Origin: a virus
Taxonomy: Duplodnaviria; Heunggongvirae; Uroviricota; Caudoviricetes
IMG/VR virus record: IMGVR_UViG_2541047747_000003
Direction: 5' to 3' (one strand)
DNA length: 54,039 bases
The translations under genes were made by a program, and so were the position numbers. Below, one piece after another: positions 3,714 through 10,152 of this stretch; position 1 is the stretch's first letter; each line of letters starts with the position of its first letter. The notes under the pieces are model-generated. The model saw only the letters and a list, made by a program, of their open reading frames with translations, ran no database searches and was not told the DNA's origin.

Positions 3714-5129
3714 TTAAAAAGATGAGTTTGTCTGGTTATTTCGCTGGGAGAATCGGCTTGTCGCCTGACGTTGTTGCATTGACTGGATACACGCGGACGC
3801 CGCGCGGGCCTGGTCGCATGGTAAAATGTTGCCGTTATCATCAAACCGCTGGTAAACAGTACCCGTTTTCCCGTGACGGTTTTTTGAAACGATGATCTCC
3901 ATGTACTCGCGGGCAACTGATTGTTCGTTGTAGTAGCCGTCGCGGTAGACCATGATGATCCTGTCTGCGTCTTGTTCCAGATTGCCGGAATCACGCAGAT
4001 CAGAATTGTTAGGGCGCTTGTTCGGTCGTTCCTCAACGCGGCGGGATAACTGAGCCAGCGCAGCCACTGGCACGCGCAACTCTTTCGCCATCATTTTCAA
4101 TGACCACGACAATTGCCCTACAGCGAGATCGTGACGTTCTGCCTTAGCTAGCTTCATTAACCCGATGTAGTCAATCATTACCATACCCAGGTTGGGATAA
4201 TCCTGCTTCATTCGTTCAGTTGTGGCGCGTATTTCCTCGACAGTTAACTGTGATGCATCAACAATCCACACATCGAGATCAGCAAGTGCGCTCATTCCCT
4301 GGGCAACGTGCGCCCATCCTTCGTCATCCAGTTTTACCGGATTACGTAAGCAATCCGTTGACAAGTTCCCTGCGCCAGCGATAGCGCGTTCAGTCATCTG
4401 ATCGAGCGACATTTCAAGCGTGAACAGCAAAACGCCGACCCGCTGACCTTCTCCGCCAGGGTATTGTCGTTCAGCAGCCGCGCGGGCAATTGCCAACGCC
4501 AACGCCGATTTACCAGACCCTGGGCGTCCGGCGATAAGCACCAGATCAGTAGCGTTAATGCCGCCTAACATTTCGTCGAGTGGGTCAATCCCTGTTTTGA
4601 TGTTGTCAGAGTTCACGCCACACTCCATGCGTTTACTTAGCACTTCCGTGTATTCCTGGACAGCATCGCGCAACAGCACCGGGATAATCTGATCTTTTGT
4701 TACCTTTAATTTTGAATACCGGGAATCAAAATCTTTCATCGTCTCTTTGACGACCTCAAGTGTCCCAGTTTCCAGTTTGTAGCGCATATCGTCGATGAGT
4801 TCCAACATCTGCCGCCGCTGGTGCTCTTCACGTAGTAGCTGTGCATATCCCTTCAGGTTGGCAGCAGAAGGGCACGATCGCGCCGTTTGCATTAGCGGTA
4901 CAAAGTTTTCATTACCAATCTCATCACCAACCAGTAACGCGTCGATAAGATTTCTGTTTCTGGCTTGCGCCCGGATAATTTCAAAAGCCCGCTTATATAG
5001 CGGAATAGTGAATACTTCAGGATCGAGCGTAGCAAGAACGTCTTGCGCGTTAGGTGTAAGCCCGCCTAACAGGAGTCCGCCTATCACAGCAGACTCTCGT
5101 TCTTGTCGCAGTGAGTTAACAGAATCCAT
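3714..5129 (-). CDS. Replicative DNA helicase (DnaB-like)
   Basis: 471 aa; Walker A GRPGSGKSALAL, DnaB-type N-terminal domain and RecA-like C-terminal core. Confidence 0.85.
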   Translation of the reverse strand: MDSVNSLRQERESAVIGGLLLGGLTPNAQDVLATLDPEVFTIPLYKRAFEIIRAQARNRNLIDALLVGDEIGNENFVPLMQTARSCPSAANLKGYAQLLREEHQRRQMLELIDDMRYKLETGTLEVVKETMKDFDSRYSKLKVTKDQIIPVLLRDAVQEYTEVLSKRMECGVNSDNIKTGIDPLDEMLGGINATDLVLIAGRPGSGKSALALAIARAAAERQYPGGEGQRVGVLLFTLEMSLDQMTERAIAGAGNLSTDCLRNPVKLDDEGWAHVAQGMSALADLDVWIVDASQLTVEEIRATTERMKQDYPNLGMVMIDYIGLMKLAKAERHDLAVGQLSWSLKMMAKELRVPVAALAQLSRRVEERPNKRPNNSDLRDSGNLEQDADRIIMVYRDGYYNEQSVAREYMEIIVSKNRHGKTGTVYQRFDDNGNILPCDQARAASACIQSMQQRQATSRFSQRNNQTNSSF

Positions 5130-5147
5130 TATGGCATTACCTCCGGT

Positions 5148-6266
5148 TTACAAAATGGAATATTCAGGGTAATAAACAAAGCGCCCGATTTCCCCGTGAT
5201 CAGGACTGTAAATTATTACCGCCGCCAGACGCCGCGACCGCCAGCCGCCATTCGTTGAATAAGCGTCTTTGCCCGCTAACGTGCCGTGATACTCAACAAC
5301 GCCTAACGATGATTCAATCAACCGTTGGTGGTGCCAGTGCCCGCAATGAGCATAAACCGCCGCAGACTTACCGAAATCTTCCCGCCAGTCAGAGACGCAG
5401 GCAGACAACAAATTTTCTGGTTTTTTGATGGTGTGTCCGTGGTGGTAAGCAAGGAATGTTTTGCCGTACTGTGTGTGGTGTACGATAGCAGGTGACACGT
5501 CAACCGTTACGCGCGGTTCATCTTCGTAAAAAGCCGCCAGCGCAGCACGTAGCCAAATCATCCCCGACTGATCGTGATTACCTGATAATACCTGGATTTC
5601 GATTTCTTTGTGGTTTAACAACATCTTTCCTACAGCACGGCGGACTGACCGGATCGCCACATAAACAAGTTTTGCGTAGCGTGAATCGCAATCAAGTACG
5701 TGATTGCTTGATGGCGTCACTGGCAACAGCCCATCAGTGTGAAGAACATCCCCACCGAGAAGCAATACAGCTTTTTCAGACATCGGCGCTGCGCCTACCG
5801 CGTAGTCAAAGAAATCATTTAGCACGCGTTCAGCGATCCCGGTGTCGTAGCTCTCACCGCATTCAGCTTTATGAGCAAGCGCCCCGATATGCAGATCGAA
5901 TACCGGATAAAGGGCCAGGCTTTTTTGGAAATCAATTTCCGGCACTGGCACGGCCTCCGCGCGTGGCATGTCTTCCGTGAAAGCATCGCAAGCCGCTTGC
6001 ATTAGCCTTTCCATTTCATCGCGATCACGGGCTGTTTTAATCCAGCGCATAATCACATTGCCATCCTTATCGACGAGCAATGACTCACCATTGACGCCAA
6101 AGCCCGGCGCGCGACGCGTGGATATTAAACCGCGTTTCGCCAACCGTGCGCCCAGGCGTTCGACGTTGCGTTTTGCCATTCCATATTCTTCTGCTATTTG
6201 CTTGTAAGTTTTCCCCTTGTTGTACTCGGCGATCAGTTCCTCATCGCTGATCTTTCTTTGTGACAT
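5148..6266 (-). CDS. HTH domain fused to calcineurin-like metallophosphoesterase
   Basis: 372 aa; N-terminal HTH (KTYKQIAEEYGMAKRNVERL); metallophosphatase motifs GDVLH, GNHD, HHGH, GHWHH. Confidence 0.7.
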   Translation of the reverse strand: MSQRKISDEELIAEYNKGKTYKQIAEEYGMAKRNVERLGARLAKRGLISTRRAPGFGVNGESLLVDKDGNVIMRWIKTARDRDEMERLMQAACDAFTEDMPRAEAVPVPEIDFQKSLALYPVFDLHIGALAHKAECGESYDTGIAERVLNDFFDYAVGAAPMSEKAVLLLGGDVLHTDGLLPVTPSSNHVLDCDSRYAKLVYVAIRSVRRAVGKMLLNHKEIEIQVLSGNHDQSGMIWLRAALAAFYEDEPRVTVDVSPAIVHHTQYGKTFLAYHHGHTIKKPENLLSACVSDWREDFGKSAAVYAHCGHWHHQRLIESSLGVVEYHGTLAGKDAYSTNGGWRSRRLAAVIIYSPDHGEIGRFVYYPEYSIL

Positions 6267-6443
6267 AACGTTATTACCTCCGGTTCGCGGAATGAGTATT
6301 TATTCATAAATAACTAATTTTTATTAACATGGATTTCACGGTGTCAAAAAATGCCAGTAGGGTTAATCAACAACTTATGCAAATTGAAATAACCACTTAA
6401 TGAATAACCAATCGTATACATTACGGTTTACAATTTGTATACA

Positions 6444-7499
6444 TTAGGATATAGCACAACGGAAAAACTTGCACCCCAAATAATCTTCAATGCGTTTTTG
6501 TCTTATCGCATCGCTTTTTACTTGCCGTTTGTGATGTGACTCATCAATTTCTACAGCAACGTTATTCACAGGATCGTAGCCATCAATAAAATACTTATTG
6601 CCAGCAACATCAACAGGATATTGCCTTATTAATTTAACTCCTTTTAGTTTTTCATACATAGTTAAGCCAGCATGTTCATAACGCTTCCTAATCATATTTT
6701 TACAATTATCTCTCATTTCTGATAATTTCGAGTCGCACTCCTTTTTTATTTCTTCAATTACATTTTTATCGCTTTTTAATTCAATAAAGTTTTCTATGTC
6801 GTTATAATTCCCGCATTCAAAATTATTATTAAGACCTTTATTTTCACCCCATGCATGATACTTTTCTGCCATCTTATCGCTAATATATCTTTCATACCCA
6901 TAATTTGTTTTAACTATAAAATATTCAATATTTAAATCAATGGTAAACTCATCATTATTGAGGTGTTCAGTTAAAAACGCATCTGGATCTGCAATATCGC
7001 TTGAATGGAACAACCTTACCCATAGTTTTTCTATTGATACTCCGCGAGTGACGAACAACCATTTTTTGTACTTTTCAGCATCTTCTTTTGACACATACAC
7101 AGAACATCGCCCAGGAGTATCACTCGTTTCAACATAATTGTTACACCATAAAATATAATTATAAGCATAAGGACTATCTTTTTTGGTGTTATTTGAATAT
7201 TTATTAAAGATATCTTGCAAGTCAACTAATCCACAAGATTCAATAACTGGCTTAACCCATTTTTCATTATATTCATAATGTCTATATTTACCAGGTGTAA
7301 CGAATCTAATAAACGTTATGGGTGTGATATACACATCATCACCATCAACAATAAAATCCTTGTATTCCTCAAATCCGTAAAGATCAGAGTATTTAACAAA
7401 TGATTTAAGTCTATCAATTTCAAGTTCAGAAACCAGATTATTAACAGACAGTAATTGCGTGTCCTTACAATTGAGTTTCATATGATAAGTAGCAATCAT
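6444..7499 (-). CDS. Low-GC accessory protein with C-terminal Vsr/DUF559-like (PD-(D/E)xK-type) nuclease motif
   Basis: Start chosen at MIATYHM with an AGGAGG RBS; visibly AT-rich against neighbours; C-terminal VAVEIDESHH...SD..R...I...LGCKFFR matches the E.DG..H...D..R...L..G..VLRF pattern. Confidence 0.55.
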   Translation of the reverse strand: MIATYHMKLNCKDTQLLSVNNLVSELEIDRLKSFVKYSDLYGFEEYKDFIVDGDDVYITPITFIRFVTPGKYRHYEYNEKWVKPVIESCGLVDLQDIFNKYSNNTKKDSPYAYNYILWCNNYVETSDTPGRCSVYVSKEDAEKYKKWLFVTRGVSIEKLWVRLFHSSDIADPDAFLTEHLNNDEFTIDLNIEYFIVKTNYGYERYISDKMAEKYHAWGENKGLNNNFECGNYNDIENFIELKSDKNVIEEIKKECDSKLSEMRDNCKNMIRKRYEHAGLTMYEKLKGVKLIRQYPVDVAGNKYFIDGYDPVNNVAVEIDESHHKRQVKSDAIRQKRIEDYLGCKFFRCAIS

Positions 7500-7650
7500 A
7501 TATACCTCCTTTATTAATTTTCTATATAACGCCTCAGACGAGCTACAACGCAAAAATCCCACCGCGTAACCCGTTTACAGGTTGCAGTGTCTTATTGCGC
7601 TAGAGGCGCTATCAGGTGGCTAATTTTCGATTTACAGAATGGTAGGTAGG

Positions 7651-7752
7651 TTATGGATTGATTAGCAGGTACAGACCGCCGAACAAGGCGACGTTAACAG
7701 CGATTGCCGCAGCGATGGCAAAAGCCAGGGCGAAAACGTGTTTACCGGCCAT
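7651..7752 (-). CDS. Small hydrophobic membrane peptide (33 aa)
   Basis: Hand-translated MAGKHVFALAFAIAAAIAVNVALFGGLYLLINP; GAGAGGA RBS 7 nt upstream; below the ORF-track size cut-off. Confidence 0.4.
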   Translation of the reverse strand: MAGKHVFALAFAIAAAIAVNVALFGGLYLLINP

Positions 7753-7885
7753 TTTAAAATCCTCTCTGTAACGCCCTATAACGAGCTAATCGCAAAAAGG
7801 TAAGCAAGTGTAGCACCACATGCGATTTAGCTCGCTGGTGAGGTTGTTTTGTGGGTAATTTTGGATTTTTGAGGATCGTGATTGG

Positions 7886-8938
7886 TCAAAGAACGCCAGC
7901 GCGCGTATCACGTAGCGTTTTTGGTTTAAGCAGGAAATCAAGTGTCGCGGTGAAGCCATCGCCGAAGTAAAAATCTGAAGCCGTGTTTTTGAACGTTTCG
8001 AAGTAGGCGACAAAGCCGTTAATGCTTTTGTCTTTCAGGTAGTCAGTGAACGCATAGATCTTGCGTTCAAGATCCCGATCCAGTTCGGCAGGTGGTAACA
8101 GGCCGTCAAACGTGCTGTTAAATGCTTCCACCACGTCGGCAGCGTTTACAGTGGCTGACAGTTTGCGCCATTGTTCAGCATCAGTCAGATACCCATCAAA
8201 TTTAGTTACCCGGCAAATGTTGATAGGCTTAGGTACTCCACCACGGCTACGCCATTGGGTTAAAGCCCACTCAATTACTAACGTGATCTCATTCTCCGTA
8301 TACGCTTTACGTGTTTTTGTTTCTGTCAGTAGTTCTACGAATGGCTTAGCATCACGACATTTGCATCCTGCCTTGTCGTTGTAGAAGGCAAGGCAACGCA
8401 ATGCCGCTTCGTTTACGCCATCCTGATTGACCATTTTTTGTTCATTTTCGACAATACACGAAGTGTATATATCTTTTTCTCTTTCTTTTTCTACTTCTAA
8501 TTCTAATTCATGACCCTTTCCTGACCCGGTCATGACCCTATCATGACCTTTTTGTGTTGGATTGATTAACTTTTCTAATTTTAATCGCTCCTTCGCTGTG
8601 TTTATGGCGCCCCTGTAAGCGCTTTTAGAAGTCATTGATTGGTCCAGCCTTTTCAATAACTTTAAACAAGTTATGTGGCCTTGAGAACATTCAAACAAAC
8701 CAATTTCGATGAAGTATTTCATCATTTCTTCTATACGTTTTTCAGTAGATCCGACGTTTCGCGCAATTATTCTTGCGTCATGTCGTAGGTCAAAAGTTAG
8801 ATTGTGCTGATCTACGTCATAAGTTATTAGTTCTAGGCAATACCAATAAAGCCCGTACCCTTCCAGGCCATAATCTAACAAAACGTTTTGAAGTTTTTCA
8901 TCGCGGTTCGCATCGCTGTCATGCTTAAACCACTTCAT
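7886..8938 (-). CDS. Putative replication initiation protein
   Basis: 350 aa; N-terminus MKWFKHDSDANRDEKL...GLEGYGLYWYCLELI resembles the Lin1244/DUF4373-type domain of phage replisome organisers; occupies the O-gene position. Confidence 0.45.
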   Translation of the reverse strand: MKWFKHDSDANRDEKLQNVLLDYGLEGYGLYWYCLELITYDVDQHNLTFDLRHDARIIARNVGSTEKRIEEMMKYFIEIGLFECSQGHITCLKLLKRLDQSMTSKSAYRGAINTAKERLKLEKLINPTQKGHDRVMTGSGKGHELELEVEKEREKDIYTSCIVENEQKMVNQDGVNEAALRCLAFYNDKAGCKCRDAKPFVELLTETKTRKAYTENEITLVIEWALTQWRSRGGVPKPINICRVTKFDGYLTDAEQWRKLSATVNAADVVEAFNSTFDGLLPPAELDRDLERKIYAFTDYLKDKSINGFVAYFETFKNTASDFYFGDGFTATLDFLLKPKTLRDTRAGVL

Positions 8939-9504: not shown

Positions 9505-10152
9505 ATGAAAACAAAATGGTATGACTTAGCAAAGCAGCTCATGCGGGCGCAGGGCATGAGCCAGGATTCACTCGCGGATCGTATGGGGATAACTAAAGGC
9601 GGCCTGTCACACTGGCTGAACGGTCGCCGAGAGCCAAATCTTGAAGATATTGCGCGGATTATGCGCGAGCTTGGTCGTCGGCAGTTTACTGTTACACATG
9701 ATGGCATGGTCATTGATGATTCTGTTTCTAATACACTTCAGGCCGTGCCGCCGCGTGATTTAGGTAGTTACCCGGTTATTGACTGGAAGGACACAGTAAA
9801 CAATATGGATGACGCAAGGCGTTCAGCATTACGACACGTTACGACTAGCGTTATTTGTTCAGATGACAGTTACTGGCTGGTTGCCAAAGGTGAATCAATG
9901 AACGCGCCGCAGGGGTTGAGCATCCCGGCGGGGACGATGATACTTGTGGACCCGCACGCGCCAGCTATTGACGGCAAACTGGTTATAGCCCAGCTTGAGG
10001 AAGGGCAGATACCGACGTTTAAACAGTTGATTATTGATGGAGGTCAAAGGCTTTTACGTTCGCTCAATCCGCTGTATCCGCCAATCCCTATGAATCCAGA
10101 ATCAAAAATTATAGGCGTGGTGGTTGATGCGAAGATCGTAAACCTGCCATAA
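9505..10152 (+). CDS. CI-like repressor (HTH plus S24/LexA-type peptidase domain)
   Basis: 215 aa; N-terminal HTH (QDSLADRMGITKGGLSHWLNG), C-terminal S24-like domain with GESM serine motif and a downstream lysine. Confidence 0.85.
   Translation: MKTKWYDLAKQLMRAQGMSQDSLADRMGITKGGLSHWLNGRREPNLEDIARIMRELGRRQFTVTHDGMVIDDSVSNTLQAVPPRDLGSYPVIDWKDTVNNMDDARRSALRHVTTSVICSDDSYWLVAKGESMNAPQGLSIPAGTMILVDPHAPAIDGKLVIAQLEEGQIPTFKQLIIDGGQRLLRSLNPLYPPIPMNPESKIIGVVVDAKIVNLP

What the first reader, a model, noticed from the sequence alone, without database searches (positions are those of the whole stretch)
6267..7885. Low-GC accessory gene with a Vsr/DUF559-like nuclease motif inserted in the replication operon: candidate defence or abortive-infection gene
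Between the replication initiator and the HTH-phosphoesterase/helicase genes lies a segment that is clearly more AT-rich than its surroundings. It encodes a 351-aa protein (6444..7499, minus strand, strong AGGAGG RBS) whose C-terminus (VAVEIDESHH...SD..R...I...LGCKFFR) matches the restriction-endonuclease-like pattern of Vsr/DUF559 domains. The roughly 300-aa N-terminal region has no motif I can recognise. A compositionally foreign nuclease-domain gene inside an otherwise conserved early operon is the typical signature of a prophage-borne defence or exclusion gene. The fusion to an unknown N-terminal domain makes it a candidate for an uncharacterised single-gene system.
Basis: partly seen in the sequence, partly recalled or inferred. 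Interest (0 to 1): 0.8.

Follow-up and report, generated by a model that had tools for sequence, protein, structure and literature searches.

The report
Swappable phage nuclease gene, orphan N-terminus
This AT-rich gene in a temperate E. coli phage is a swappable cassette encoding a small Vsr-type DNA-cutting domain fused to a domain with no known relatives; it most likely behaves as a selfish "homing" nuclease, and a bacterial defence role is possible but less supported.

Summary
A 351-aa ORF (6444-7499, minus strand) with 31% GC sits between flanks of about 50% GC. Its last ~70 residues model confidently as a Vsr/DUF559-type PD-(D/E)xK nuclease with all catalytic-type residues present. The first 282 residues have no homologue among 1.84 billion representative proteins.

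The defence interpretation is only partly supported. The window is an mEpimmI (mEp021-like) coliphage. The gene occupies a cassette-exchange slot between conserved boundary sequences in the early replication operon. Of 16 related genomes, 3 have the slot empty. Ten of the 13 occupied slots carry DNA-binding-plus-nuclease genes, either zinc-finger+T5orf172 (published as putative homing endonucleases) or this Vsr-like module.

The same module is fused elsewhere to Rha, Bro-N and AntA domains. It also lies between the halves of an intein-fractured terminase gene, and sporadically in the gp32-frd slot of one T4-like phage. These are homing-endonuclease contexts. Both domains are under purifying selection (omega about 0.05). 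No promoter of its own was found.

Defence is not excluded. By sequence, the nearest solved relatives of the nuclease are the type IV restriction enzymes AbaSI and PvuRts1I, and the N-terminus is unusually acidic for a DNA binder.

Verdict: new variant of a known kind, moderate interest.

The parts
6444..7499 (-). 351-aa CDS (stop codon 6444-6446): orphan N-terminal region plus C-terminal Vsr/DUF559-like nuclease
   Evidence: The identical protein is P0001; a 78% allele, P0002, is named 'DUF559 domain-containing protein' by NCBI. Omega is 0.089 between the two alleles.
6444..6653 (-). Nuclease core, residues 283-351 (alpha-beta-beta-beta-alpha-beta). Catalytic-type residues are E283, D306, E317, D319, H323 and D330
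6654..7499 (-). Orphan N-terminal region, residues 1-282. It includes a long helix (245-286) leading into the nuclease, and a marginal internal repeat (135-147 and 205-217)
   Evidence: No homologue outside its own cluster among 1.84 billion representatives. No Pfam, PHROG or NCBIfam hit. AlphaFold pLDDT below 50. Residues 1-170 have omega 0.054. The repeat scores 41 against a 95th-percentile shuffle score of 40. Net charge is -10.
7505..7510 (-). Ribosome-binding site AGGAGG, five bases before the ATG
   Evidence: Read directly from the sequence.
7500..7537 (-). Cassette-specific leader, between the conserved upstream boundary and the start codon
   Evidence: Homology to phages lacking the gene stops at 7538.
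7538..7555 (-). Conserved upstream boundary of the slot (TTTTGCGTTGTAGCTCGT on the coding strand)
   Evidence: Present in every relative whatever the cargo. It is the second copy of a leader repeat also found at 7770-7788.
6430..6452 (-). Downstream boundary motif (stop codon + TGTATACAAATTGTAAAC). In other phages this motif directly precedes the exo ribosome-binding site
   Evidence: Junction comparison. A tandem 23-nt partial copy lies at 6407-6429.
6267..6443 (-). 177-bp AT-rich spacer between the gene and exo; an independent unit, not part of the gene's cassette
   Evidence: Absent from the Ecol_244 allele. Present at 91% identity behind a different zinc-finger+T5orf172 cargo in L014. No Rfam hit. 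Its last 38 bp (6267-6304) match the empty-site exo leader.
5148..6266 (-). Downstream neighbour: HTH + metallophosphoesterase 'DNA repair exonuclease' (phrog_704). It travels with the gene in the near-identical recombination tract
   Evidence: Identity is 99.7-100% in all loci carrying the exact protein, while dnaB falls to 91-94%.
7886..8938 (-). Upstream neighbour: replication initiator (Lin1244_N; phrog_20981, phrog_428)
   Evidence: It is only 63% identical in amino acids between the two gene-carrying lineages, so the slot lies at a mosaic boundary.

Best explanation
The gene is a free-standing, horizontally exchanged nuclease cassette of the homing-endonuclease type. It sits in a cargo hotspot of the early replication operon of an mEpimmI (mEp021-like) temperate coliphage.

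Shown: it is an accessory cassette bounded by sequences conserved in all relatives. Its C-terminal ~70 residues form a minimal Vsr/DUF559-type PD-(D/E)xK nuclease with a complete set of catalytic-type residues. That nuclease module is a shuffled phage domain found on many different N-terminal domains. Both halves of the protein are under purifying selection.

Inferred: the gene is transcribed with the early operon during lytic growth or induction. The orphan N-terminal region supplies target recognition. The nuclease cuts DNA of co-resident or co-infecting relatives that lack this cassette or carry a different one. Recombinational repair then copies the cassette and the adjacent exo gene into the cut genome. 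That spreads the gene and, as a side effect, favours its carrier in phage-phage competition.
For: 1. Sporadic presence at one fixed site. Only 2 of 33 complete E. coli genomes with the backbone carry it, and none of 7 sequenced relatives. In all 8 places shown for the exact protein (25 contigs read, 211 index blocks) it occupies the same slot.

2. Clean cassette junctions. Empty-site phages have about 9 bp where the window has about 1.23 kb.

3. The slot is dominated by nuclease genes. Of 13 occupied slots, 6 hold zinc-finger (1, 2, 3 or 5 copies) + T5orf172 genes and 4 hold the Vsr-like module. Published work treats the zinc-finger+T5orf172 architecture as putative homing endonucleases that cluster near replisome genes and recombination boundaries (PMC10448857; PMC8263062). 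A second site, between exo and the helicase, carries HNH endonucleases in mEp515, mEp010 and mEp021.

4. Relatives of the module sit in hallmark homing contexts. P0007 (41% identical module) lies between the ATPase half of a terminase gene and an ORF with an intein-splicing hit plus the terminase C-terminal half. That matches the 'fractured gene' setting in which Vsr-like homing endonucleases were discovered (PMC3239194). A Rha+module gene lies between gp32 and frd in 1 of about 60 Krischviruses, where others have nothing or other 'endonuclease' genes.

5. The fold and the composite E-D-x-H-D residues match I-Bth0305I and Vsr.

6. Purifying selection acts on both domains (omega 0.054 and 0.051). 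Allele divergence (dS 1.4) exceeds that of the flanking genes (dS 0.65).

7. A near-identical tract (gene + spacer + exo) has one shared left edge in two mapped backbones and three different right edges inside dnaB.

8. No promoter-like site lies upstream within the cassette or intergenic region. The gene is in the early, Gp17-antiterminated operon.
Against: - No cleavage or homing has been shown for this protein or for any Rha, Bro-N or AntA fusion of the module.
- I-Bth0305I is matched by fold only, not by sequence.
- The N-terminal region has no detectable DNA-binding motif and is acidic (net -10; the family's N-termini have a median pI of 9.3). That is unusual for a homing endonuclease, though the second allele is near neutral (net -1).
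- The slot also holds non-nuclease cargo (Bro-N+ANT, Rha+ANT). The conserved boundaries could support ordinary homologous cassette exchange with no nuclease involved.
- The tract analysis is biased, because the loci were chosen for carrying the exact protein.
- The strong purifying selection and about 20% allele divergence at one site fit a retained useful function as well as they fit a selfish one.
Confidence: 0.47

Rival explanations
1. It is a prophage-borne defence or exclusion nuclease. It could be a type IV-like enzyme whose N-terminal domain reads modified or foreign DNA. It could instead be a weapon like ICP1 Odn, directed at competing phages or satellites. In either case it cuts invader DNA rather than promoting its own spread.
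For: By sequence, the nuclease module's nearest solved relatives are the nuclease domains of the 5hmC-dependent restriction enzymes AbaSI (E 5.7e-5) and PvuRts1I (E 1.1e-3), with near-identical EIDExHH and sDAxRxxxI motifs. PADLOC mREase_II gives E 1.3e-8. The gene is a single gene with no partner, as expected for a nuclease that spares unmodified self DNA. It has low GC and sits in a variable hotspot. The acidic, orphan N-terminus under strong purifying selection looks more like a sensor than a classic DNA-binding domain. There is precedent for a homing-endonuclease-derived chimeric nuclease serving as an anti-parasite weapon in a phage (PMC8263062).
Against: PADLOC and Pfam match only the nuclease domain. 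Profile positions 102-294, the SRA-like reader half, are unmatched, and the domain order is reversed. No promoter-like site lies in front of the gene, and it sits inside the repressed early lytic operon, so lysogen protection is doubtful. None of the other cargos in the slot matches a known defence system beyond domain-level hits. The module's relatives sit in homing contexts.
Confidence: 0.25
2. It is a regulatory or replication-accessory protein of the Bro/Rha/Ant modular family. The Vsr-like fold would serve in DNA binding or nicking for the phage's own replication or recombination, or in the lysis-lysogeny switch, with no role in mobility or defence.
For: Most module fusions are annotated as Rha-family regulators. 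The slot's alternative cargos include Bro-N+ANT and Rha+ANT antirepressor-type proteins. The gene lies between the replication initiator and the exonuclease and helicase genes. Purifying selection is strong.
Against: The gene is dispensable. Three of 16 relatives have an empty slot, including phages isolated as plaque formers. All catalytic-type residues are invariant or nearly so across 88 members, which argues for catalysis rather than binding alone. The N-terminus is not Rha or Bro-N by profile comparison.
Confidence: 0.15
3. It is a decaying or inactive remnant of a mobile nuclease with no current function.
For: Homing endonuclease genes commonly degenerate after fixation (general knowledge). 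The N-terminus has no relatives.
Against: Omega is 0.05-0.15 across all parts of the protein at dS 1.4. The ORF is intact with a strong ribosome-binding site. All catalytic residues are retained. The identical protein is indexed in 211 blocks of the assembly collection.
Confidence: 0.03

Closest known systems
EDxHD / Vsr-like homing endonucleases (I-Bth0305I, PDB 3R3P; the T-even 'Hef' genes; metagenomic 'fractured gene' endonucleases)
   Different: A family profile detects no sequence similarity to I-Bth0305I. There are no NUMOD or HTH motifs in the N-terminus. The N-terminus is orphan and acidic. No cleavage or homing data exist.
PvuRts1I / AbaSI family of 5hmC-dependent type IV restriction enzymes (PDB 4OQ2, 4OKY, 4PAR)
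   Same: These are the closest solved relatives of the nuclease domain by sequence (E 5.7e-5 and 1.1e-3; 25-29% identity in structural alignments). The EIDExHH and sDAxRxxxI motifs are shared. PADLOC mREase_II gives E 1.3e-8. Both are single-gene systems.
   Different: The domain order is reversed: nuclease at the C-terminus here, at the N-terminus there. No match to the SRA-like modified-cytosine reader half. The gene is encoded in a phage early operon and not on a plasmid or chromosome island.
Phage Rha, Bro-N or AntA + DUF559-like fusions (145-205 aa, annotated 'Rha family transcriptional regulator'), including mEp044_12 in the same slot
   Same: The same nuclease module at 45-68% identity, in the same kind of genomic slot (mEp044_12; P0028), with the same N-terminal-partner-plus-C-terminal-module layout.
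   Different: The N-terminal partner here is about 280 aa. It is unrelated to Rha or Bro-N by profile comparison, has no homologues at all, and is acidic where the family's N-termini are basic. These fusions are themselves uncharacterised.
Zinc-finger (CapR/DUF4379) + T5orf172 putative homing endonucleases, and the derived weapon Odn of phage ICP1
   Same: They occupy the very same slot in sibling phages (mEp021, mEp013 and four prophages). They share the logic of a modular targeting domain plus a small C-terminal nuclease. Published work places them near replisome genes and at recombination boundaries.
   Different: They have a different nuclease superfamily (GIY-YIG-like T5orf172 rather than PD-(D/E)xK/Vsr) and different targeting domains.

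Membership tests
DUF559 (PF04480) / Vsr-like branch of PD-(D/E)xK nucleases | Score at or above Pfam's gathering threshold | tested here: met
   21.7 bits against a cutoff of 20.6, residues 282-339. This is marginal. Relatives P0028, P0031 and P0036 also hit DUF559.
DUF559 (PF04480) / Vsr-like branch of PD-(D/E)xK nucleases | Alpha-beta-beta-beta-alpha-beta core fold superimposable on Vsr or DUF559 structures | tested here: met
DUF559 (PF04480) / Vsr-like branch of PD-(D/E)xK nucleases | Conserved acidic and histidine active-site residues (D on beta-2, E/D on beta-3, H after beta-3) | tested here: met
   D306, E317 and D319 are invariant, and E283, H323 and D330 are at least 90% conserved in 88 sequences. 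All are present in the window protein.
EDxHD homing endonucleases (I-Bth0305I type) | C-terminal Vsr-like catalytic domain carrying the composite E, D, x, H, D residues | tested here: met
EDxHD homing endonucleases (I-Bth0305I type) | Detectable sequence homology to characterised members | tested here: not met
   A profile of the module against all PDB sequences finds AbaSI and PvuRts1I but not 3R3P at E up to 10.
EDxHD homing endonucleases (I-Bth0305I type) | N-terminal NUMOD or HTH DNA-binding region | tested here: not met
   No Pfam, PHROG or NCBIfam hit in residues 1-282, even at E up to 10 on sub-segments. The relative P0007 does have a NUMOD3-like GRSHTEETKKK motif, but I identified that by eye only.
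EDxHD homing endonucleases (I-Bth0305I type) | Selfish-element distribution: in an intron or intein, or free-standing and sporadic between conserved genes | tested here: met
   Free-standing. Found in 2 of 33 backbones in complete genomes, with clean empty sites. Module relatives lie in a fractured terminase gene and in the gp32-frd slot.
EDxHD homing endonucleases (I-Bth0305I type) | Site-specific cleavage of the cassette-less allele and super-Mendelian inheritance | not testable with these tools
   This needs biochemistry and phage crosses. The recombination-tract pattern is compatible but biased by how the loci were chosen.
PvuRts1I/AbaSI type IV restriction enzymes (PADLOC mREase_II) | Vsr-like nuclease domain homologous to the family's | tested here: met
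   PADLOC E 1.3e-8 over profile positions 37-101. PDB profile search gives AbaSI E 5.7e-5 and PvuRts1I E 1.1e-3.
PvuRts1I/AbaSI type IV restriction enzymes (PADLOC mREase_II) | C-terminal SRA-like domain that reads 5hmC or ghmC, with the nuclease at the N-terminus | tested here: not met
   Only positions 37-101 of the 294-position PADLOC profile match. The nuclease is C-terminal. The N-terminal region has no SRA hit. Its structure could not be modelled (pLDDT below 50), so a fold-level resemblance cannot be excluded.
PvuRts1I/AbaSI type IV restriction enzymes (PADLOC mREase_II) | Modification-dependent cleavage and restriction of T-even phages | not testable with these tools
   This requires experiment.
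Rha / Bro-N / AntA + module fusion proteins | N-terminal Rha (PF09669), Bro-N (PF02498) or AntA (PF08346) domain | tested here: not met
   hhalign against a Bro-N profile gives probability 2.4%. Against a Rha profile the score is 13, below shuffled controls of up to 18. No Pfam hit.
Known anti-phage defence systems (PADLOC-DB v2) | Full-length match to a system protein, or a neighbouring partner gene of a known system | tested here: not met
   There is only the partial mREase_II domain hit. The neighbours (exo, rep) have no significant PADLOC hits.

The most novel reading that the evidence does not exclude
The orphan, acidic, strongly constrained 280-residue N-terminal domain is a new kind of sensor or targeting domain that directs a PvuRts1I-type nuclease against foreign DNA, such as modified DNA of other phages or a satellite or competitor replicon. 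On this reading the gene is an uncharacterised single-gene phage-versus-phage weapon or defence system carried in a homing-endonuclease hotspot, comparable in logic to ICP1 Odn but with a different nuclease and an unprecedented recognition domain.
Probability: 0.2. Interest if true: 0.7.

Novelty: new variant of a known kind. Interest (0 to 1): 0.4.

Why it matters
If the homing-type reading is right, this locus is a compact natural example of several things in a temperate coliphage group common in the human gut. Three unrelated nuclease families (Vsr-like, T5orf172 and, one gene further on, HNH) and antirepressor-type proteins compete for the same few intergenic sites beside the replisome genes. 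They appear to be exchanged through short conserved boundary sequences.

It also shows that a roughly 70-residue Vsr-like module, currently annotated mostly as 'Rha family transcriptional regulator' or 'DUF559', is a widely shuffled phage nuclease domain. This module links type IV restriction enzymes (AbaSI, PvuRts1I) with homing-endonuclease contexts.

The N-terminal domain has no relative among 15 billion proteins yet is under strong purifying selection. It is a clean target for discovering a new recognition domain. If the minority reading is right, the gene would add a new single-gene nuclease system to phage-phage conflict.

Tried and rejected
- **Identifying the N-terminal domain by HMMs.** I tried Pfam on the whole protein and on three sub-segments at E up to 10, plus PHROGs, NCBIfam and PADLOC. 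Nothing was found.
- **Exhaustive phmmer.** Residues 1-282 against 1.84 billion representatives returned only the protein's own cluster.
- **Structure of the N-terminus.** AlphaFold on the full length had only two informative sequences for the N-terminus, giving pLDDT below 50. I did not run a fold search on it because it would be meaningless.
- **Bro-N or Rha relationship.** The hypothesis that the N-terminus is a degenerate Bro-N or Rha domain, or tandem copies of one, is rejected. hhalign gives probability 2.4% against Bro-N. A faint hit to the start of Rha-type N-termini did not survive a dedicated profile with shuffled controls.
- **Internal repeat and P0028 link.** The repeat (135-147 and 205-217) scores 41 against a 95th-percentile shuffle score of 40. 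The motif link to the N-terminus of P0028 has pairwise E 0.015. I keep both only as hints.
- **Sequence link to I-Bth0305I.** Not found. Only the fold matches.
- **A known RNA or own promoter.** Rfam gives nothing for 6000-8100. No minus-strand sigma-70-like site lies between the slot boundary and the rep gene. The one site near the start would initiate inside the ORF.
- **The 177-bp spacer as part of the cassette.** Rejected. It is absent from the second allele and present behind a different cargo.
- **The mEpimmI paper.** It does not discuss this slot or these genes.
- **The identity-tract test for homing.** It is informative but biased by selecting loci on the exact protein, so I do not count it as proof.
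Full report
**1. The observation**

The ORF listing and the raw sequence show an ORF at 6444..7499 on the minus strand (351 aa), with AGGAGG five bases upstream of the ATG. A longer GTG-started version (to 7562) would run through sequence that is conserved in phages lacking the gene. Both database alleles also begin MIATYHM, so the ATG at 7499 is the start.

GC content falls to 0.29-0.33 over 6400-7600. The exonuclease and helicase genes on one side have 0.49-0.53, and the region on the other side has about 0.47. The gene itself has GC 0.314 and GC3 0.256, against GC3 0.52 for exo and dnaB.

Pfam DUF559 scores 21.7 bits against a cutoff of 20.6 (residues 282-339), with a weaker PvuRts1I-like_N hit. 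PADLOC mREase_II gives E 1.3e-8 for residues 288-349. PHROGs and NCBIfam give nothing useful.

**2. What the window is, and what the site is**

The region is 86-91% identical to Escherichia phages MagusPhagus, mEp515, mEp554, mEp044, mEp010, mEp021 and mEp013. This is the mEpimmI group of Nus-dependent temperate coliphages (PMC11893012).

The gene order is cI repressor (9505-10152, plus strand), then divergently a MarR-like gene, the replication initiator (7886-8938), small ORFs, the slot, an HTH-metallophosphoesterase 'DNA repair exonuclease' (5148-6266) and DnaB (3714-5129). According to that paper, this leftward early operon is subject to the N-like Gp17 antitermination system through nutL.

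None of the seven phages has the 351-aa gene. Each carries something different at exactly this position. Pairwise BLAST puts the edges of homology at window 6304 and 7538. In MagusPhagus and mEp010 only about 9 bp separate the two edges.

Reading the junctions on the coding strand shows two conserved boundaries:
- The upstream boundary (GGGTTACGCGGTGGGATTTTTGCGTTGTAGCGCGT...) is followed by each cargo's own ribosome-binding site and start codon.
- The downstream boundary is the cargo's stop codon, then [A/G]TATACA-n4-GT[A/T][A/G]AC, then the exo ribosome-binding site and ATG.

In the window the downstream boundary follows the stop codon directly (TAATGTATACAAATTGTAAACCG). After it comes a partial tandem copy and about 140 bp of extra AT-rich DNA before a degenerate boundary copy and the exo start. 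That 177-bp spacer (6267-6443) is absent from the second allele of the gene. It is present at 91% identity behind a different cargo in another prophage. It is therefore a separate unit. The foreign gene cassette proper is about 6444-7537.

**3. What fills the slot in relatives**

I examined 16 genomes: the window, seven phages and eight E. coli prophages. I classified their cargo with Pfam.

| Slot content | Genomes |
|---|---|
| Empty | 3 (MagusPhagus, mEp010, strain MFDS1019527) |
| 1, 2, 3 or 5 treble-clef zinc fingers (DUF4379/CapR) + C-terminal T5orf172 | 6 (one, shared by L012 and L013, is just below the T5orf172/MUG113 cutoff) |
| The Vsr-like module | 4 (window, M15, Ecol_244; and mEp044 as Bro-N+module followed by Rha+ANT) |
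| Bro-N + ANT/KilAC | 2 (mEp515, mEp554) |
| Rha + an unidentified C-terminus | 1 (L017) |

So 10 of the 13 occupied slots encode a DNA-binding-type N-terminus plus a small C-terminal nuclease. The sample is not independent, since the window and M15 are near-identical and L012 and L013 share one protein.

Published work on ICP1 and other phages treats the zinc-finger+T5orf172 architecture as putative homing endonucleases. That work reports that they cluster near replisome and other essential genes, sit next to endonuclease genes of other classes, and mark recombination boundaries (PMC10448857; PMC8263062).

A second site, between exo and the helicase, carries an HNH endonuclease in mEp515, mEp010 and mEp021. 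It is empty in the window, where only 18 bp separate the two genes.

**4. The protein: the C-terminal module**

A search of 5.8 billion clustered proteins found only two full-length relatives. One is the identical P0001. The other is P0002, 78% identical, from E. coli Ecol_244 in the same slot. Five further hits shared only the last ~70-110 residues. They include mEp044_12, the Bro-N protein in the same slot of mEp044 (46% identity).

A profile of this module retrieved 184 proteins:
- Most are 145-158 aa fusions to Phage_pRha.
- Others are fused to AntA or Bro-N.
- Others are stand-alone 70-100 aa proteins that sources call very-short-patch-repair endonuclease or DUF559.

In an 88-sequence alignment D306, Y308, E317, D319 and R333 are invariant. 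E283, D309, E320, H323 and D330 are conserved in at least 90%. The window protein has all of them.

AlphaFold on the full length gave confidence only for residues ~280-350. A dedicated model of residues 262-351 with the deep alignment reached pLDDT 87 and pTM 0.75, with alpha-beta-beta-beta-alpha-beta topology.

The I-Bth0305I paper defines the composite EDxHD motif as E170, D196, N208, H213 and D222, equal to Vsr E25, D51, H64, H69 and D97. By order and spacing these correspond to E283, D306, E317/D319, H323 and D330 here. This mapping is an inference, not a residue-level superposition.

By sequence the module profile finds AbaSI (E 5.7e-5) and PvuRts1I (E 1.1e-3) among all PDB sequences. The motifs are nearly identical: EIDEAHH...KADAVRRLDI against EIDESHH...KSDAIRQKRI. 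It does not find I-Bth0305I.

**5. The protein: the N-terminal 282 residues**

An exhaustive phmmer pass over 1.84 billion representatives, standing for about 15 billion proteins, found only the protein's own cluster. No HMM library recognises any part of the region, even at E up to 10 on sub-segments.

Profile-profile tests against the Bro-N and Rha N-termini that accompany the same module were negative. An internal repeat (YVSKEDAEKYKKW and YISDKMAEKYHAW, offset 70) is at the edge of significance. A similar motif in the N-terminus of P0028, a 152-aa module protein in an equivalent slot of a related phage, gives a pairwise E of 0.015. These are hints only.

The region is acidic (net -10; pI 5.2 for residues 1-275, 4.9 for residues 1-244) and 16% aromatic. 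The N-termini of 108 other module fusions have a median pI of 9.3. The second allele is near neutral (net -1), so the charge is not a fixed property.

Between the two alleles, omega is 0.054 for residues 1-170, 0.15 for 171-250 and 0.051 for the nuclease core. This is at dS 1.4, against dS 0.65 for the flanking exo and dnaB genes. Both halves are therefore functional, and the cassette's history is older than, or independent of, that of the backbone.

**6. Contexts of the module elsewhere**

- **P0007.** It has a zinc ribbon, a NUMOD3-like GRSHTEETKKK stretch (recognised by eye only) and the module at 41% identity. It lies between a 288-aa terminase ATPase fragment and a 386-aa ORF, directly upstream of a T4-type portal gene. 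The 386-aa ORF combines an Intein_splicing hit (23.1 bits, below Pfam's 35.8-bit cutoff) with the terminase C-terminal region. This looks like the 'fractured gene' arrangement in which the Vsr-like homing endonuclease family was first recognised.
- **Krischvirus vB_ESM-pEJ01.** A Rha+module gene lies between gene 32 and frd, next to an HNH gene. Of 64 records sharing those flanks only pEJ01 has it. The others have an empty slot or other genes annotated as endonucleases there.
- **A stand-alone 78-aa module (70% identical).** It sits next to the lysis cassette of an E. coli prophage, with two HNH_3 genes nearby.

These are the places where free-standing homing endonucleases live.

**7. Spread of this particular gene**

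The exact protein is indexed in 211 blocks of the assembly collection. In the 8 places shown, from 25 contigs read, it always lies between rep and exo with the 177-bp spacer. One locus (GCA_000457435.1) is 100% identical to the window over 9 kb.

In four other backbones the gene, the spacer and exo are 99.7-100% identical to the window. Identity falls to about 94% from about 140 bp upstream of the start codon (98.9% in L025). It falls to 91-94%, and then 80-90%, from three different points inside dnaB. The block has therefore recombined into diverged backbones several times. This is what co-conversion around a homing site would look like. However, the loci were selected for the exact protein, and ordinary recombination gives the same picture, so I treat it as compatible and not decisive.

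**8. Synthesis**

Shown:
- The gene is an accessory, compositionally foreign, single-gene cassette in a boundary-delimited hotspot.
- It has a catalytically complete Vsr/DUF559-type nuclease module that phages shuffle among many N-terminal partners.
- It has an orphan N-terminal region under purifying selection.
- It has no promoter-like site of its own and lies in an early antiterminated lytic operon.

Inferred: the protein is a targeted DNA endonuclease made during lytic growth, and its gene persists and spreads by homing-type gene conversion. I give this about 0.47.

The grounds are the sequence kinship of the nuclease with AbaSI and PvuRts1I, the sensor-like oddity of the N-terminus, and the precedent of ICP1 Odn, a homing-endonuclease-derived chimeric nuclease used as a weapon. 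Against it are the missing reader domain, the reversed domain order, the lack of autonomous expression signals and the company the gene keeps. A regulatory or replication-accessory role gets about 0.15, and an inactive remnant about 0.03.

**9. Novelty and score**

The kind of thing, a modular free-standing phage nuclease in a homing-endonuclease hotspot, is known. The nuclease superfamily is known, and NCBI already labels the protein 'DUF559 domain-containing'. What is new is the architecture (an orphan ~280-residue domain on this module), the recognition of the Rha/Bro-N/AntA+module proteins as a shuffled nuclease family linking type IV restriction enzymes and homing contexts, and the description of this slot.

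That makes it a new variant of a known kind. A specialist would find it a tidy example and not a surprise, so I set interest at 0.4. The upside is that the N-terminal domain could turn out to be a new recognition or sensor domain.

Noticed in passing
window 6267-6443: A 177-bp AT-rich (28% GC) spacer lies between the gene and exo, and it is an independent unit. It is absent from the second allele of the gene. It recurs at 91% identity behind a different (zinc-finger+T5orf172) cargo in E. coli LP-26-E1-261 (L014 1488-1662). It starts with a tandem 23-nt repeat of the slot's downstream boundary (6407-6429 and 6430-6452, core TAATGTATAC). It has no ORF and no Rfam hit, and its function is unknown.
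   Followed up: partly
window 7528-7545 and 7770-7788 (minus strand): A ~35-nt leader (TTTTTGCG..TAGCTCGT..GGCGTTA) occurs twice, once before the conserved 33-aa ORF and once as the upstream boundary of the cargo slot. The pattern TAGCNCGT-N(2-7)-GGCGTT matches twice in the window, against 0.03 expected by chance. The slot boundary may therefore be a duplicated gene leader.
   Followed up: partly
window 7566-7585 (minus strand): A hairpin just upstream of the slot boundary (AACCTG-TAAA-CGGGTT) appears, by my reading of the sequences, to keep its pairing through different stem sequences in relatives (for example AACATGT...ACGTGTT in mEp515). That would suggest a conserved RNA or DNA structure. 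It is not a canonical terminator, because the T-run lies 11 nt downstream.
   Followed up: no
window 7654-7752 (minus strand): A 33-aa strongly hydrophobic ORF (MAGKHVFALAFAIAAAIAVNVALFGGLYLLINP) is annotated as a 102-bp CDS in all mEp relatives. No family hit was found.
   Followed up: no
window 5129-5148; L002 981-1535, L003 945-1535, L006 1-484: There is a second mobile-nuclease site. mEp515, mEp010 and mEp021 carry an HNH or 'homing endonuclease' gene between exo and the DnaB helicase, where the window has only an 18-bp gap.
   Followed up: partly
L026 3122-5889 (Logan SRR12762294 contig): A large-terminase gene is split into an ATPase half (288 aa) and a 386-aa ORF. That ORF has an Intein_splicing hit (23 bits, below the Pfam cutoff) plus the terminase C-terminal region. 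A 243-aa zinc-ribbon + Vsr-like endonuclease gene (P0007) lies between the two halves, just upstream of the portal gene. This looks like a 'fractured gene' with a split intein.
   Followed up: partly
L010 2782-3219 (Escherichia phage vB_ESM-pEJ01): The gp32-frd intergenic slot of Krischviruses is polymorphic. It is empty in JSE and PHB13, holds annotated 'endonuclease' genes in RB49, Phi1 and GEC-3S, and holds a Rha+Vsr-like module gene only in pEJ01 (1 of 64 records).
   Followed up: partly
L005 1807-3161 (mEp044) versus L002 2638-3381 (mEp515): The two slot genes of mEp044 (Bro-N+Vsr-like module, then Rha+ANT) share their first and last parts with the single Bro-N+ANT gene of mEp515. It looks as if a 'module + Rha' segment had been inserted into, or recombined with, a Bro-N+ANT gene. 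This is domain shuffling visible at one locus.
   Followed up: no
window 7886-8938 versus L008 4955-5953: The replication initiator is only 63% identical in amino acids between the two lineages that carry the gene, while exo and DnaB are 95% identical. The slot therefore lies at a mosaic boundary of the replication module.
   Followed up: partly
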